IMG/VR virus record: IMGVR_UViG_3300017705_000783
Span: 1 to 64,000 of that record
Source of the DNA: a virus
Taxonomy: Duplodnaviria; Caudoviricetes
Strand: one strand, 5' to 3'
DNA: 64,000 nt
Made by a program: the position numbers and the translations under genes. This document shows, in pieces, positions 20,162 through 24,361 of the stretch (positions within the stretch are counted from its first letter, which is position 1; every line of letters starts with the position of its first letter). The notes beneath the pieces are model-generated. The model did not search any database. It saw nothing but the letters and a program-made list of their open reading frames with translations, and was not told where the DNA came from.

Positions 20162-21182
20162 TTTTCAAAACCCCCAAACCCCACATAATATCCTCTTTAT
20201 CGAGGGATGAATTATGCTTATCCACGTAATTTTCGATTATTTTATCATTTATGGAAAAAAGCTCTTTTGTTGGCTCATATTCACTCTGGGACTTGGTGTC
20301 ATGCTCCTCCATAGGAACGAATTTAAAATCCGTATAAAAGGTTTGGAGCTGTTCCACAAGGTTACTGTCTATCAGGTCATCCTTACCCAAAGAAACCCTC
20401 AGAAGCGTTGAAAAGTTTTTATCGTTTATTAAATCCTTATAGATTTCAAAGCTTTCTTCCAGTTCTTTATATTTTACTACAAGGTGTCTAGGGCCAGAAC
20501 GAACTTCCTTAAAAACAAAGATGTCTTCATCCTCATTCTTAATCCCATAAAAACAGATTCTTCCCTCCTCCCCAAAATTGGTAGAATAAGGGGTTCCTAC
20601 AACAGTTATCTCATTGTCTCCATTCCAATTGCTGTAGTGCTTGTGGATATGACCCAAGTACGTCCTATTATTAAACTTATTTAAACCGATACTAAAATCC
20701 TTATCCCCCTGAGAGTTCAAACAGCCAGCAAACCCAAAATGACCAAATATGGAATACCCCTTAGGGGCAGACTCTAAAGCCTCAACAATCTTATCTTGGT
20801 TTTCGTAGTGGGGAATATAAAGTCTCTTGCTCTTATGGCATATATGGGTGTGCTTTATTATCTTGCAATAAGGTCCATCAAATACAGACAGGATTGTGGA
20901 ACCATTGTCTGATTTGTTGCTGGCGCAGTGGTTGCCTCTAACTATCACTACTTCTATCTTCTTCTTAGTTGTATAATCTAAAAGCTCCTTGAGCTTAAGC
21001 ACGGGATCTGGGGCTGGTTTTCTCCGATCCAATACATCTCCAAGAAAAATTATCTCATTAGGGCATTCTTTATTAATTATTTTTAAGATAGAAGCAATTT
21101 GGATATCCATAAGATCTGTTTTCTTATCATGTATATGGAGATCCCCAATTAACAAAGTTCTTCTACTCATAAGGTACCCCAT
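20151..21182 (-). CDS. gp47: Recombination endonuclease nuclease subunit (gp47/SbcD-like)
   Basis: Metallophosphoesterase motifs GDLH, GDVLD, GNH, GHF, GHIH. Confidence 0.9.
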   Translation of the reverse strand: MGYLMSRRTLLIGDLHIHDKKTDLMDIQIASILKIINKECPNEIIFLGDVLDRRKPAPDPVLKLKELLDYTTKKKIEVVIVRGNHCASNKSDNGSTILSVFDGPYCKIIKHTHICHKSKRLYIPHYENQDKIVEALESAPKGYSIFGHFGFAGCLNSQGDKDFSIGLNKFNNRTYLGHIHKHYSNWNGDNEITVVGTPYSTNFGEEGRICFYGIKNEDEDIFVFKEVRSGPRHLVVKYKELEESFEIYKDLINDKNFSTLLRVSLGKDDLIDSNLVEQLQTFYTDFKFVPMEEHDTKSQSEYEPTKELFSINDKIIENYVDKHNSSLDKEDIMWGLGVLKSED

Positions 21183-22239
21183 TTCCGAAGGAAGAACCTA
21201 CCTCTATGTCCACGGTTAGTGGAACATCCAAATTAATGCCTAAGGATGCTTTCATATAGTTACAATTAACCATTTCATCTTCTATTATAGAACACACCTC
21301 AGGGGTCTCCGCTTTTGGACAAATGAACTCCAAGCTATCGTGAACAGTTGCTTGGAAAATAGCCTTAAGACCTCTATTTTTTATAGTGTCAACTATGCCC
21401 AAAACGGCGCACACCAAAACATCAGAGGCTGCGCTCTGTACGGTAAAATTTAAGCCCTGTCTATTAGCCCTGTTTCTTATCTTAGGAACGCTGCTCTGTG
21501 TGTCGGGGAGATTTCTTCTTCTTCCAAAAATAGTAGTTATATAACCGTCTTCTTCTATGGCTGCGGTTGTCTGTCTCATGTACTTAAATACGCCAGGAAA
21601 TACAGTAGCATATTGAGAAATTATATCCTCCGATTTCTTAAGGGGGATATTCATCGTCTCAGATAAATTAAAGGCTCCTCCACCGTACACAATGAGGAAA
21701 GAAACGGTCTTAGCTATCTGTCTTTCTTCTGTGGTGATCTTTTCCTCTGGTTTTCCGAACACGAGACTGGCCGTATGAGTATGGAGATCCTTCCCCTCTA
21801 TAAAAGCACTCTTCATACCTTGCTCGTTAGCTATGTGTGCCAGTATCCTAAGTTCCATAGCGTTATAATCAGAGGTAATAAAGTCCCAGCCAGCGGGAGC
21901 TACAAATATGTCCCTTATATTATGCTCTTTGTCTCGGGGAAGAGTGTGAAAGGAAATCCCCATACTATTTCCCTTATTCCCAGAATACCCAGTACAGGAG
22001 AGCCTCCCTGTTGCTGTTCCATCCAAATTAAAGGACACATAGACTTTATTCTGATCATTATAAGTGATAGCCTTAGTGGTACCCATAATGTAAGTCTTAT
22101 AAAGCTTTTCTAACTTCCTAAGCTTAAGTAAAGTCTCTATGAAGTCTCGGGCTTGAATAAGTTCCTCAGTTGTTTTACTTTTAACAACAGAGTCGCTTAT
22201 TTTTTTACTCTCGTCCCTATGTTTCCATTTACTTCCCAC
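21163..22239 (-). CDS. polA: DNA polymerase family A, palm/fingers fragment (part 3 of a split polymerase)
   Basis: GTATGRLS, motif A DYNAMELR, motif B RQIAKTVSFLIVYG, GRRR, NFTVQSAASD, motif C TVHDS; GTG start with AGGAG SD. Confidence 0.92.
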   Translation of the reverse strand: MGSKWKHRDESKKISDSVVKSKTTEELIQARDFIETLLKLRKLEKLYKTYIMGTTKAITYNDQNKVYVSFNLDGTATGRLSCTGYSGNKGNSMGISFHTLPRDKEHNIRDIFVAPAGWDFITSDYNAMELRILAHIANEQGMKSAFIEGKDLHTHTASLVFGKPEEKITTEERQIAKTVSFLIVYGGGAFNLSETMNIPLKKSEDIISQYATVFPGVFKYMRQTTAAIEEDGYITTIFGRRRNLPDTQSSVPKIRNRANRQGLNFTVQSAASDVLVCAVLGIVDTIKNRGLKAIFQATVHDSLEFICPKAETPEVCSIIEDEMVNCNYMKASLGINLDVPLTVDIEVGSSFGNGVPYE

Positions 22240-22708
22240 GAGAGCTAATCTCCTTTTTGATCTGATTCAGCAGGATGTCTAAAGTGGGTTTGCTGACGGA
22301 GGGTAAGCCCTTGTCTGTTTTGTCAGGAGGATATAAAGCAAAGCCCTCTTCCTTGGTATAAAAAACTTCTCTTAGGTCCTTGGTGCTAGAGAGATTCTCC
22401 TTCACGTTAAGTTGAGGAAAATCATACATGCTGTCGTGTATGTCAATGACAGAATTATTTAAACTTCTAGCTACTTCTTTAAGCCTCTCTCTTGAAACTA
22501 TTAAACCCTCGTACTCTGGCTCCATGAAGACCGTATTGGCAGGAGCTAGTACGTTCTCATAAAAGGGAAGGACTCCCATATCGTCTAACATAGTATAAAG
22601 TACGAAGAACACTTTAAGAGTGTAATGAGAATCCATTGCATTCCCACGCAAGCAATCAGGGAGAGGTATATTTTCCCAATCAAAGTTTTTATTTTTTACA
22701 GTTAGGAT
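22229..22708 (-). CDS. polA: DNA polymerase family A, ExoIII plus thumb fragment (part 2 of a split polymerase)
   Basis: The frame is open upstream of the track's TTG (22651) through ILTVKNKNFDWENIPLPDCLRGNAMD (ExoIII region). It continues with MEPEYEGLIVS, NLSSTKDLREVFY and thumb GLPSVSKPTL. The only start candidate behind the GGAGG is ATC at 22708. Confidence 0.75.
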   Translation of the reverse strand: MLTVKNKNFDWENIPLPDCLRGNAMDSHYTLKVFFVLYTMLDDMGVLPFYENVLAPANTVFMEPEYEGLIVSRERLKEVARSLNNSVIDIHDSMYDFPQLNVKENLSSTKDLREVFYTKEEGFALYPPDKTDKGLPSVSKPTLDILLNQIKKEISSRGK

Positions 22709-23706
22709 ACTACATCCTCCTCAAGTTCCTCTGGGAAGTACATGTTCACCAAGTCGGACAAAGATTTCGGAGCATTCTCATTTATGAGATGTTGCATTAC
22801 TTTAGTATCCCACACATTAACAGCACTTACTCCGTATCGCCACAAAAACTTCAAATCAAACTTAGCATTTTGAAATACTTTCATGTTATTTTTATTAGAA
22901 AGGATCCTTTCTATGGCATCCCACGGAGATAGCTCGGGAGAATTTTTATGATCTATGGGTATAGCATAGGTCCCAGACTCATGAGAAAATGCGATGGTCT
23001 GGATCTTGTCTCTTTTAAAATCTAAACCCGTTGTTTCTATATCACATGACACGGGGGTATCAGTGGTGAACAATGGTTTTAGAAGATCAAGCTTAGTGTC
23101 TGAGTCTATTATCTCATAACTAAAATCACTTTTAGCTTTCTTTTCTATAACTCTAGATATGGAGTTTCTTATATCCAGTTCAAATAGGTATCTGTGGCGA
23201 GGTTCTATGATTACCGAATAGGGGTGGAACAGGGGAACCACAGTACACTCAAAATCATCATGAACAAAAGGAAATAGGGTTCCTCTCTTTGAGGCAATAC
23301 CACTTTTCTTTATAAGCATCTTCATAGCAAGGTTGCCGCAAACAAAGACCAACTTCGGTCGTAACTTTACCACTGTCTTATACAGATGCTCCCTACATAA
23401 ATTCATATTGGCGGGAGGCATGTCTGCCTCTTTCACCTTGGGACACTTGACAGATGCAGAAAAGGAAGTAACTTTTTTGTACTCTGCGGGTAGAATTTCA
23501 TGTATTAGCTTATACTCTTTGTGATTGAAAGGGTAGGGTTCTCCATACATGTAAGTAAAGGAATCGGCAAGGAATAAAATATCATATTCCCTTCCCACCT
23601 TTTCATGATCTAAATTACAGTGGAAGGGTTTTGATTGTTTAAGAATAGAACATCCGTCACAACCCTCAGGGGCTTCTTCATCAAATAAATTTTGTAATTC
23701 AATCAT
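22702..23706 (-). CDS. Family-4 UDG-like domain fused to the N-terminal part of the 3'-5' exonuclease (part 1 of a split polymerase)
   Basis: CDGC...VKCP...NLC (Fe-S Cys), VVPLFHPYS; then ExoI SCDIETTG, ExoII FQNAKFD and WDTKVM..LINE; ends before ExoIII. Confidence 0.88.
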   Translation of the reverse strand: MIELQNLFDEEAPEGCDGCSILKQSKPFHCNLDHEKVGREYDILFLADSFTYMYGEPYPFNHKEYKLIHEILPAEYKKVTSFSASVKCPKVKEADMPPANMNLCREHLYKTVVKLRPKLVFVCGNLAMKMLIKKSGIASKRGTLFPFVHDDFECTVVPLFHPYSVIIEPRHRYLFELDIRNSISRVIEKKAKSDFSYEIIDSDTKLDLLKPLFTTDTPVSCDIETTGLDFKRDKIQTIAFSHESGTYAIPIDHKNSPELSPWDAIERILSNKNNMKVFQNAKFDLKFLWRYGVSAVNVWDTKVMQHLINENAPKSLSDLVNMYFPEELEEDVVS

Positions 23707-23721
23707 GATCTATAATATATT

Positions 23722-24084
23722 ATGAAAAAAAAGAATTATATAGATAATAAGAGATTTGAGGCTCTCATCTTATTATACTTGGATGACCCTAAAAATCACG
23801 AAGAGGAATTAATAAAATTATTCGATGTTCTCATATCAAATATAATTGAAGGTTTTAACTTCTGCGTGGATAGGGAAGACGCAAAACAAGAGTGCTTCTT
23901 TTTGATACTAAAGACACTGAAAAATTTTAAGAGCGGAAAGGGGACTGCTTTCAATTACTTTACTACTGTTGTGGTGAACAACTTAAAACTAATCTACACT
24001 AAAAATAAAAAATACAAGGAAAAAATAGAAAACTTTACAAGAGATATCATGGGACCGAAACCCCCAACTTTTTATAAATCATAG
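23722..24084 (+). CDS. gp55: Minimal late-transcription sigma factor, T4 gp55-like
   Basis: NYIDNKRF (cf. HYVNN), REDAKQECF..ILK.LKNF and AFNYFTTVV (cf. PFAYFTQ); only 120 aa. Confidence 0.65.
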   Translation: MKKKNYIDNKRFEALILLYLDDPKNHEEELIKLFDVLISNIIEGFNFCVDREDAKQECFFLILKTLKNFKSGKGTAFNYFTTVVVNNLKLIYTKNKKYKEKIENFTRDIMGPKPPTFYKS

Positions 24085-24361
24085 GAAGATAATAATCTAT
24101 CTCCTTCTTCCTTCTCCGAACACTCACCAAACAAGGCACCTGAGTTGTATGACAAGCAACAAAAGCATGAGGTGTTTCAAAGCTATCAACAACATTTAAT
24201 TTCTGGTGGAGCTTGTGATTCCCGTTCTCTATCTCATTTATAATATCCATGCATACTTTGTCGTGGGATGAGATAAAAAGGAAGGTGGCATCATCAGCAT
24301 TCTTCATGCTTTTTCTCAACAACTTATTAAAGTTGTTTTCGGTTTTTATAAAGTTTATCAT
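24047..24361 (-). CDS. Hypothetical protein, possible thioredoxin-like fold without CxxC
   Basis: FLFIS...TTQVPCLV resembles the cis-Pro loop; weak similarity only. Confidence 0.35.
   Translation of the reverse strand: MINFIKTENNFNKLLRKSMKNADDATFLFISSHDKVCMDIINEIENGNHKLHQKLNVVDSFETPHAFVACHTTQVPCLVSVRRRKKEIDYYLPMIYKKLGVSVP

What the first reader, a model, noticed from the sequence alone, without database searches (positions are those of the whole stretch)
21163..23706. Family A DNA polymerase split into three ORFs, with the proofreading active site divided between two
ORF1 (22702-23706) has the UDG-like domain plus ExoI and ExoII. ORF2 (22229-22708) has ExoIII (GNAMD) plus the start of the thumb. 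ORF3 (21163-22239) has the rest of the thumb and motifs A, B and C. There is no intervening DNA, intron, homing endonuclease or split-intein signature. ORF3 has its own AGGAG-GTG start and an extra helical N-terminal stretch, and ORF2 has an extra C-terminal stretch, as expected of real subunits. A heterotrimeric PolA would have to assemble both its exonuclease site and its thumb in trans.
Basis: partly seen in the sequence, partly recalled or inferred. Interest (0 to 1): 0.75.

Follow-up and report, generated by a model that had tools for sequence, protein, structure and literature searches.

The report
Three-gene split phage DNA polymerase
This uncultured marine phage, like a large group of its relatives, encodes its only DNA-copying enzyme as three separate small genes, with cuts through the proofreading domain and the DNA-gripping "thumb", so the enzyme most likely has to be rebuilt from three proteins.

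Summary
The window's family A DNA polymerase, which has a UDG-like N-terminus, lies on the minus strand as three abutting ORFs:
- 23706-22702: UDG-like domain plus ExoI and ExoII.
- 22708-22229: ExoIII helix plus the first thumb helices.
- 22239-21163: last thumb helix, palm and fingers.

It is not an assembly artefact.
- All 68 related loci from other metagenomes that had enough flank (55-97% aa identity) show the same three pieces with the same ends.
- 41 of the 69 loci (window included) carry 0.2-2.3 kb of other genes, often on the opposite strand, between pieces 1 and 2. Two loci carry DNA between pieces 2 and 3.
- Each piece has its own conserved start. Junction-2 overlaps occur in both frame relations.
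- All three ORFs are under purifying selection.
- No fused protein above 38% identity was found.
- Complete relatives encode no other polymerase.
- Deeper relatives have a two-piece form with the first cut only, and the tree nests the three-piece clade inside it.

The best explanation is an old, fixed gene fission giving a heterotrimeric replicase bridged by the 159-aa middle subunit.

One oddity remains: piece 2 starts with ATC here, against ATG in all other lineages.

Split PolAs cut between the exonuclease and polymerase domains are known. This three-way cut inside domains appears undescribed. Earlier notes of this scan report two-piece cuts within the proofreading domain, and another three-piece PolA, on other DNA.

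The parts
22702..23706 (-). Piece 1 (334 aa). It holds a UDG-like domain that keeps the four cluster cysteines but has FLADS where unsplit relatives have GEAPG. It also holds the first two-thirds of the 3'-5' exonuclease domain, with ExoI (D222, E224; codons 23043-23035) and ExoII (N280, F283, D284; D284 codon 22857-22855).
   Evidence: Pfam UDG and DNA_pol_A_exo1 positions 1-128 of 173. Invariant residues in A2. The unsplit relatives' consensus has VGEAPG.
22715..22722 (-). GAGGAGGA, a Shine-Dalgarno-like run inside the end of piece 1. It lies 6 nt upstream of the ATC that opens piece 2.
   Evidence: Sequence. Relatives have GGAG-type runs at the same place where pieces 1 and 2 abut.
22706..22708 (-). 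ATC at the position where 78 of 79 related loci have the ATG start of piece 2. It overlaps the end of piece 1 by 7 nt.
   Evidence: 76 loci have ATG at this codon and 2 have ATG one codon upstream. ATC is also present in an independent assembly, L089. The 4 differing codons among codons 2-19 are all synonymous in this frame.
22229..22708 (-). Piece 2 (159 aa), the bridge subunit. Its N-terminal helix carries ExoIII (G22-N23-A-M-D26; D26 codon 22633-22631). It then supplies the thumb helices up to the helix equivalent to Klenow 'SEEVLEEL'.
   Evidence: Profile against Klenow, E 2.4e-15, chain residues 158-293. About 95 stand-alone relatives of 157-181 aa in an exhaustive search. Invariant G22, N23, D26.
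22250..22255 (-). AAGGAG, a Shine-Dalgarno-like run 10 nt upstream of the GTG of piece 3. It is encoded by the conserved E-E/E-L tail of piece 2.
   Evidence: a GAGGAG-type run is conserved upstream of the start in relatives.
21163..22239 (-). Piece 3 (358 aa, GTG start). It overlaps the end of piece 2 by 11 nt. It holds a conserved N-terminal stretch (W5, 'HRDE'), thumb helix I, and palm and fingers with motif A (D124, codon 21870-21868), motif B (R173, K177, Y185, G186) and motif C (D301, codon 21339-21337).
   Evidence: Pfam DNA_pol_A, 282 bits. Klenow alignment. Invariant residues in A1. More than 120 relatives of 353-376 aa with 98-100% coverage.
23707..23721 (.). A 15-nt spacer between the ATG of piece 1 and the ATG of the divergent 120-aa gene (23722-24084, +). 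It reads TATAAT on the + strand and TATTAT on the - strand, so it is a possible shared promoter region for the polymerase operon.
   Evidence: Sequence. The consensus scan finds only a weak + strand site here and no sigma-70-type site on the - strand between the three pieces.

Best explanation
The polymerase gene underwent two successive, now fixed, gene fissions.

Order of the cuts: the first cut, between ExoII and ExoIII inside the proofreading domain, is shared by a wider lineage of marine T4-like myophages that use PolA. The second cut, in the thumb between the 'SEEVLEEL'-like helix and helix I, arose once inside that lineage.

Expression: in the window the three genes are probably co-transcribed. 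They are probably translated by coupled re-initiation, because the stop of each piece overlaps the start of the next and each start has a Shine-Dalgarno run lying in the upstream coding sequence.

Assembly (inferred, not shown): the three proteins assemble into one enzyme. The 159-aa middle protein acts as a bridge. Its N-terminal helix packs onto piece 1 and supplies the fourth carboxylate (D26) of the DEDD proofreading site. Its C-terminal helices pack against helix I of piece 3 to form the thumb.

ATC start (inferred, not shown): in the window's own sub-lineage the bridge subunit is initiated at AUC, helped by the strong SD and by ribosomes terminating 4 nt downstream.
For: Shown:
- The same three ORFs (336-340, 157-165 and 353-374 aa) occur in all 68 related loci with enough flank.
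- 41 of 69 loci have 184-2287 nt between pieces 1 and 2, mostly opposite-strand ORFs, some encoding a 2OG-Fe(II) oxygenase or a GT2. Two loci have DNA between pieces 2 and 3.
- Piece 2 starts with ATG in 78 of 79 loci. Piece 3 starts with ATG or GTG at one conserved position.
- Junction-2 overlaps are 4 nt in 20 loci and 8, 11, 23 or 26 nt in 47. Both frame relations therefore occur.
- Window against L089, synonymous to non-synonymous differing codons: 41:13, 27:7 and 53:8 for pieces 1, 2 and 3.
- The catalytic residues of the exonuclease and polymerase sites are invariant.
- The best protein of 628 aa or more has only 38% identity to piece 3.
- The exhaustive search with piece 2 finds about 95 stand-alone relatives. 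It also finds four proteins of 515-563 aa that start with piece 2 and run on into piece 3. Two of these were looked up and sit next to a piece-1 gene in the same synteny.
- The tree gives the three-piece clade 99/96 support, the two-piece plus three-piece clade 100/97, and P0339 as sister to the three-piece clade at 100/99.
- Three relatives that are 99-100% complete have no PolB and only this PolA.
- In a confident model of an unsplit relative (pLDDT 91), the cuts map to the end of helix 337-344 and the loop 345-349, before the ExoIII helix 360-387, and to the loop 489-491 between helices 479-488 and 492-517.
Against: - No direct evidence that the three proteins bind one another or that the enzyme is active.
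- The tyrosine of ExoIII (Klenow Y497, invariant Y in unsplit relatives) is an invariant glycine in the whole split lineage. Proofreading may therefore be weakened or work differently.
- The window's piece 2 lacks a standard start codon. AUC is generally a very poor initiator (my own knowledge), so the stoichiometry of the bridge subunit is unclear.
- One relative (L061) has a truncated 92-aa piece 2.
Confidence: 0.8

Rival explanations
1. Programmed ribosomal frameshifting (-1 at junction 1, +1 at junction 2) fuses the ORFs into one ordinary single-chain PolA. The ORFs would then be separate only on paper.
For: In the window the pieces abut with 7- and 11-nt overlaps, and pieces 1 and 3 share a frame. 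Piece 2 has no standard start codon in the window or in L089. An SD-like GAGGAGGA precedes junction 1.
Against: - There is no X XXY YYZ heptamer in the 19-nt window available for a shift at junction 1.
- There is no stable or conserved RNA structure at either junction (z -1.75 and -0.91; 0 conserved pairs) and no Rfam element.
- Most relatives have 0.2-2.3 kb with opposite-strand genes in junction 1.
- Junction 2 occurs in both frame relations.
- Start codons are conserved at both junctions.

At most, this could apply to junction 1 in the window's own sub-lineage.
Confidence: 0.06
2. The three genes are real and separate but do not rebuild a proofreading polymerase. Pieces 2 and 3 form an exonuclease-deficient polymerase, and piece 1 works on its own, for example as a DNA-binding or nuclease accessory protein.
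For: - The ExoIII tyrosine is lost, and the GE(A/G)PG motif of the UDG-like domain is lost in the split lineage.
- Piece 1 is often separated from pieces 2 and 3 by other genes and may be transcribed apart from them.
Against: - The four carboxylates D, E, D (piece 1) and D (piece 2) are invariant down to 26-31% identity.
- Piece 1 stops exactly where piece 2 begins on every homology ruler.
- All three genes co-occur in every locus with enough flank.
- PolAs are reported to need the exonuclease domain for stability (Czernecki et al. 2023, PMC10201439).
Confidence: 0.1
3. Assembly or sequencing errors, or a decaying pseudogene.
For: The record is a metagenomic contig that CheckV rates 56% complete. 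Read support could not be checked.
Against: - The same breaks occur in 68 independently assembled loci from many samples.
- An independent assembly at 97% aa identity in piece 3 (about 95% nucleotide identity across the junction region by eye) has identical junctions, including the ATC.
- All three ORFs are under strong purifying selection.
- This is the only polymerase in complete relatives.
Confidence: 0.02

Closest known systems
Split exo/pol PolA of S-SBP1-like and S-TIP37-like (clade B) T7-like cyanophages (Czernecki et al. 2023, PMC10201439; PMC12695635)
   Same: A family A replicase encoded by separate genes after gene fission. There is no intein and no intron. Frameshifting was dismissed, and the subunits are predicted to reassemble.
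   Different: That case has two pieces cut at the boundary between the exonuclease and polymerase domains, so each active site stays on one chain. The present case has three pieces, with cuts inside the exonuclease domain (ExoII|ExoIII) and inside the thumb. It also has a UDG-like N-terminal domain and a different phage type, a T4-like myovirus.
Pseudomonas phage LUZ24 (Bruynoghevirus): gp25 'DNA polymerase exonuclease subunit', gp34 'DNA polymerase part II', gp36 'DNA polymerase'
   Same: A cultured phage whose PolA is annotated as three genes, with unrelated genes between them.
   Different: gp25 carries all three exonuclease motifs (D-L-E, N-x-x-D-Y-D, Y-C-L-Q-D), so the cut lies at the domain boundary. 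gp34 and gp36 are separated by an endonuclease gene before motif C. From memory of the LUZ24 genome paper, which I did not check here, LUZ24 is described as intron-containing. There is no detectable profile similarity to pieces 1 or 2.
Single-chain UDG-PolAs (SPO1, SP-10, N4-like cluster 17; Czernecki et al. 2023) and the uncultured unsplit relatives P0364, P0367 and P0375
   Same: The same domain order, UDG-like then 3'-5' exonuclease then polymerase. They are colinear with pieces 1, 2 and 3.
   Different: They are one chain of about 780-880 aa. They keep Y-x3-D in ExoIII, and the uncultured unsplit relatives aligned here (A5) keep VGEAPG in the UDG domain. Identity to the pieces is at most about 30%.
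PhiKZ split family B polymerase DNAP-N/DNAP-C (bioRxiv 2026, PMC13648687; Kazlauskas and Venclovas 2011, PMC3201878)
   Same: A phage replicase made of separately encoded exonuclease-containing and polymerase-containing chains that form a stable complex.
   Different: It belongs to family B, has two chains, and its complex has been shown by cryo-EM.

Membership tests
Family A DNA polymerase (Pfam PF00476) | Polymerase motifs A, B and C with both catalytic aspartates, and a profile score above the curated cut-off | tested here: met
   Piece 3 scores 282 bits against a cut-off of 34.3. D124/Y125/E129, R173/K177/Y185/G186 and D301 are invariant in 30 relatives. Piece 3 aligns with Klenow at E 4.5e-50.
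Family A DNA polymerase (Pfam PF00476) | Thumb, palm and fingers on one polypeptide | tested here: not met
   The thumb is divided between piece 2 (Klenow chain residues 158-293) and piece 3 (from residue 289/290). This is the point of the finding. It does not affect homology.
DEDDy 3'-5' proofreading exonuclease (PF01612) | ExoI D-x-E, ExoII N-x2-3-(F/Y)-D, ExoIII Y-x3-D | tested here: inconclusive
   All four carboxylates are present and invariant, three in piece 1 and one in piece 2. The ExoIII tyrosine position is an invariant glycine.
[quoted passage not shown] | An N-terminal UDG-superfamily domain ahead of the exonuclease domain | tested here: met
   Pfam UDG scores 27.1 bits against a cut-off of 24.3 at residues 80-165. 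PDB family 4/5 UDG 4zbx matches at E 4.8e-5. The four cysteines are nearly invariant.
[quoted passage not shown] | Catalytic GE(A/G)PG motif of an active family 4 UDG | tested here: not met
   The split clade has F-L-(A/S)-D-S where the unsplit relatives' consensus has V-G-E-A-P-G.
Split exo|pol PolA of T7-like cyanophages | A single cut at the exonuclease/polymerase domain boundary, leaving a complete exonuclease domain on one chain | tested here: not met
   Cut 1 lies between ExoII and ExoIII. Cut 2 lies inside the thumb.
Split-intein 'fractured genes' | N- and C-intein fragments at the broken ends | tested here: not met
   No piece has a Pfam intein hit. Only 11 and 6 PHROG-profile positions are unaccounted for at the two junctions. 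Where relatives have inteins, they sit near motif B, not at these sites.
Programmed ribosomal frameshift gene | A slippery site, a stimulatory element, and a fixed frame relation conserved in relatives | tested here: not met
   No heptamer. No conserved structure. Both frame relations occur at junction 2. Genes are inserted in junction 1.
Group I/II intron-interrupted polymerase gene (SPO1, Twort-like) | Intervening RNA with an intron fold | tested here: not met
   There is no intervening DNA in the window. Rfam finds nothing at E up to 1 in 20900-24100.

The most novel reading that the evidence does not exclude
The fissions are not neutral scars but a working design. On this reading the replicase is obligately three-subunit, and its 159-aa bridge subunit completes both the proofreading site and the thumb. 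Its supply would be set separately, by its own promoter in insert-bearing relatives and by an AUC start in this sub-lineage. The phage could then tune proofreading and processivity through subunit stoichiometry. The two cut sites would also serve as landing pads for cargo genes.
Probability: 0.15. Interest if true: 0.85.

Novelty: new variant of a known kind. Interest (0 to 1): 0.68.

Why it matters
Family A polymerases are the textbook single-chain polymerases. A natural split was first reported for them in 2023, and only between the exonuclease and polymerase domains.

This case shows that evolution can also cut through the proofreading domain and through the thumb, and then keep the result for a long time. 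The three-piece form spans at least 55-97% identity. The stand-alone middle piece has about 95 cluster representatives down to 26% identity.

These phages are common in marine metagenomes: 261 IMG/VR stretches and 1082 related proteins were found.

The finding offers three things:
- a natural system for studying how a polymerase active site and a DNA clamp-like element can be assembled in trans;
- ready-made split points for polymerase engineering;
- a warning for annotation pipelines and PolA-based viral diversity surveys, which will see only a 358-aa 'polymerase' and two unnamed or misnamed small genes.

Tried and rejected
As a substitute I used an independent assembly (L089/L091), which has identical junctions.
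- GenBank phages have no DNA match and no tblastn match to piece 2. The best piece-3 match is 35% identical. No cultured relative is therefore on hand.
- The first IMG/VR scan, with one protein as query, found nothing. The scan with an alignment found 261 stretches.
- The motif TAATATATAG, conserved 2 nt upstream of the piece-2 ATG in insert-bearing relatives, is not enriched in the window. It is not a general gene-start signal there.
- An 8-bp hairpin that buries the GTG of piece 3 in the window is not significant (z -0.91) and is not conserved (0 pairs in 24 sequences). I dropped it as a coupling device.
- I tested LUZ24 as a possible same-site precedent. gp25 holds all three exonuclease motifs, so it is not the same cut.
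- Inteins as the cause of the cuts were considered. In unsplit relatives the inteins sit near motif B, not at the cut sites.
- Literature searches for a three-way or intradomain PolA split found none in the held library.
Full report
**What is in the window**

Three ORFs abut on the minus strand: 23706-22702 (334 aa), 22708-22229 (159 aa if read from ATC) and 22239-21163 (358 aa, GTG start).
- Pfam places a UDG-superfamily domain and positions 1-128 of 173 of the PolA 3'-5' exonuclease model in the first ORF. It places DNA_pol_A positions 52-380 of 381 (282 bits) in the third. The second gets only a weak DNA_pol_A hit.
- On the long PHROG 17 polymerase profile the pieces cover 524-783, 795-922 and 929-1236. 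They are colinear and nothing is missing.
- A profile built from the middle-piece family matches Klenow fragment chain residues 158-293 at E 2.4e-15, which is the ExoIII helix and the first thumb helices. Piece 3 continues from Klenow residue 289/290.
- ExoI (D222, E224) and ExoII (N280, F283, D284) lie in piece 1. The ExoIII aspartate (D26, 'GNAMD') lies in piece 2.

The observation therefore stands exactly as reported.

**What kind of genome it is**

The window is part of a 72.5-kb IMG/VR virus record rated 56% complete.
- It has a T4-type sheath, baseplate wedge and major head protein. The head protein is at most about 36% identical to any phage in GenBank.
- There is no GenBank phage DNA match.
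- The polymerase sits in a replication block with SbcCD-like genes, ribonucleotide reductase and a DnaB-like helicase.

**Is the split real?**

A search with piece 3 returned more than 120 proteins of 353-376 aa covering 98-100% of it, at 55-97% identity. Contexts of three of them showed the same gene trio. In a 127-kb contig, five opposite-strand genes sit between pieces 1 and 2.

An alignment-based scan of IMG/VR gave 261 stretches, of which 80 loci were fetched.
- In every locus with enough flank, all three pieces were found with the same ends: 336-340, 157-165 and 353-374 aa.
- Of the 69 loci with all three pieces, window included, 28 have pieces 1 and 2 overlapping by 1 or 7 nt. The other 41 have 184-2287 nt between them.
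- The inserts mostly carry opposite-strand ORFs without Pfam hits. One carries a 2OG-Fe(II) oxygenase and two carry a GT2.
- Two loci have DNA between pieces 2 and 3.
- Piece 2 begins with ATG and 'M-L-T' in 78 of 79 loci.
- Piece 3 begins with a single ATG or GTG at one conserved place, behind a GAGGAG-type run.
- Junction-2 overlaps are 4 nt in 20 loci and 8, 11, 23 or 26 nt in 47. Both frame relations therefore occur, which a fixed programmed frameshift cannot explain.
- Rfam finds nothing in the region. Neither junction folds unusually well, and junction 2 has no conserved structure.
- Among proteins of 628 aa or more, the best match to piece 3 is 38% identical, a bacterial Pol I.

**Selection and necessity**

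An independent assembly (L089) is 97% identical in piece-3 protein. It has identical junctions. Its synonymous to non-synonymous differing codons are 41:13, 27:7 and 53:8 in pieces 1, 2 and 3. Three relatives rated 99-100% complete (111-131 kb) have no family B polymerase and only this PolA locus. The split enzyme is therefore, by inference, their replicase.

**History**

An exhaustive HMMER search of 1.84 billion cluster representatives with piece 2 found three groups:
- about 95 stand-alone proteins of 157-181 aa, aligned end to end, down to 26% identity;
- four proteins of 515-563 aa that begin with piece 2 ('M-L-T/S...', 'GNA-x-D') and run on into piece 3;
- unsplit UDG-PolAs of about 800 aa, at 34% identity or less.

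Two of the four two-piece forms were looked up. Each sits beside a separate piece-1 gene in the same synteny as the window.

A maximum-likelihood tree of the polymerase part gives these supports (ultrafast bootstrap / SH-aLRT):
- three-piece forms as one clade, 99/96;
- two-piece P0339 as their sister, 100/99;
- all split forms together, 100/97, apart from the unsplit UDG-PolAs and bacterial Pol I.

With the root outside, this reads as cut 1 first and cut 2 later, each occurring once. The tree was drawn with a midpoint root and several unsplit rows have long branches, so the order of events is an inference.

The DNA at junction 2 is consistent with a simple frameshift that was rescued by an in-frame start behind a pre-existing GAGGAG. 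Compare '...S-R-G-K-stop' overlapping 'V-G-S-K-W-K-H-R-D-E' in the window with the continuous 'T-R-G-I-K-K-H-E-E' of two-piece P0342. This too is an inference.

**Where the cuts fall in the fold**

An AlphaFold2 model of the unsplit relative P0364 is confident (pLDDT 91, pTM 0.87). Using the BLAST correspondences:
- Cut 1 maps to the end of helix 337-344 and the loop 345-349. That is just before the short helices and the long helix 360-387, which carries the Y-x3-D of ExoIII.
- Cut 2 maps to the loop 489-491, between helix 479-488 and the long helix 492-517 (helix I).

Both cuts are at or next to loops. After cutting, piece 2 would have to dock its first helix on the exonuclease sheet of piece 1. 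It would also have to pack its thumb helices against helix I of piece 3. It is thus a bridge between the other two. This is homology reasoning. No binding test could be run.

**Differences from unsplit relatives**

- The whole split lineage, two- and three-piece, has G-N-A-x-D where unsplit relatives have an invariant Y-x3-D.
- Its UDG-like domain has F-L-(A/S)-D-S where the unsplit consensus has V-G-E-A-P-G, while it keeps the four cysteines.
- The four exonuclease carboxylates remain invariant. I therefore expect metal-dependent proofreading to persist, but this is open.

**The ATC start**

Only the window and L089 have ATC where all other lineages have the ATG of piece 2. A pattern scan of the metagenome collection found no further members of this sub-lineage.
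- The next in-frame TTG is 19 codons downstream and would remove the conserved W11 and L16.
- The four codon differences between the window and L089 in those 19 codons are all synonymous in the piece-2 frame. They would be mostly non-synonymous in the other two frames. The stretch is therefore translated.
- A GAGGAGGA run ends 6 nt before the ATC, and piece 1 stops 4 nt after it.
- The available 19 nt hold no slippery heptamer.

The most likely reading is AUC initiation or termination-coupled re-initiation. How much protein this yields is unknown.

**Comparison with what is known**

- Czernecki et al. [quoted passage not shown] They also described single-chain UDG-PolAs. The same clade B split is used in PMC12695635.
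- OM43 phages of the MEP401 type have a DNA polymerase in two genes with a small ORF between them (PMC10580990).
- LUZ24 is annotated with three polymerase genes. Its gp25 holds all three exonuclease motifs, and gp34 and gp36 flank an endonuclease gene.
- PhiKZ has a two-chain family B enzyme (PMC13648687).
- None of these has a cut between ExoII and ExoIII or in the thumb. I found no paper describing one.
- Earlier notes of this scan report two-piece cuts through the proofreading domain in marine phages, and a different three-piece PolA with dead intein-like ends in a gut phage, all on other DNA. I did not check those notes. I did find two-piece relatives of this lineage independently.

**Verdict**

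This is a real, ancient, widely conserved three-gene family A polymerase. It is a new variant of the known kind 'split DNA polymerase'. The heterotrimer and its composite active site are the best-supported mechanism, but they remain to be shown at the bench.

Noticed in passing
window 22706-22708 (-): Piece 2 opens with ATC where every other lineage has ATG. The same ATC is present in an independent assembly (L089). The 19 codons after it evolve synonymously, so they are translated. This may be a natural AUC start, or termination-coupled re-initiation.
   Followed up: yes
window 23707-23721: Only 15 nt separate the ATG of polymerase piece 1 (- strand) from the ATG of the divergent 120-aa gene (+ strand). 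Relatives of that gene have a weak Sigma70_r2 hit. The spacer reads TATAAT on one strand and TATTAT on the other, each 5 nt from its ATG. That would fit leaderless divergent transcripts. The consensus scan gives only weak support.
   Followed up: partly
L003, L016, L023, L024, L028, L030, L039 and others, just upstream of the piece-2 ATG: When cargo genes sit between pieces 1 and 2, a conserved c-T-n-T-A-A-T-A-T-A-T-A-G motif lies 2 nt before the piece-2 ATG. It also lies about 20-30 nt before the start of the opposite-strand cargo gene, which has its own GGAG. It is probably a promoter for the cargo gene, or a bidirectional one. It leaves piece 2 without a Shine-Dalgarno run in those loci. 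The motif is not enriched in the window.
   Followed up: partly
L033:4289-4846, L071:4348-5136, L079:3793-4566: The gap between pieces 1 and 2 is a hot spot for unrelated cargo: a 2OG-Fe(II) oxygenase, family 2 glycosyltransferases and many ORFs without Pfam hits. No homing endonuclease was recognised among the ten tested.
   Followed up: partly
L061:5587-5865: One relative has a piece 2 of only 92 aa, followed by 129 nt before piece 3. It is either a broken copy or an assembly error.
   Followed up: no
L086:8967-9578 and proteins P0358, P0376, P0408, P0411: Inteins with LAGLIDADG-type endonuclease hits occur in the ribonucleotide reductase of a two-piece relative. They also occur near motif B of some unsplit UDG-PolAs, which is not at the two cut sites of this polymerase.
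   Followed up: partly
pieces 1 and 2 across A2/A3 versus A5: The whole split lineage has replaced the ExoIII tyrosine by glycine (G-N-A-x-D). It has also lost the GE(A/G)PG motif of the UDG-like domain while keeping its four cysteines. The unsplit relatives keep both motifs.
   Followed up: partly
contig of P0008 and L085:5719-6384: Some relatives carry a thyX (Thy1) gene between polymerase piece 3 and the SbcD-like gene. The window does not; its SbcD-like gene overlaps the end of piece 3 by 20 nt.
   Followed up: no
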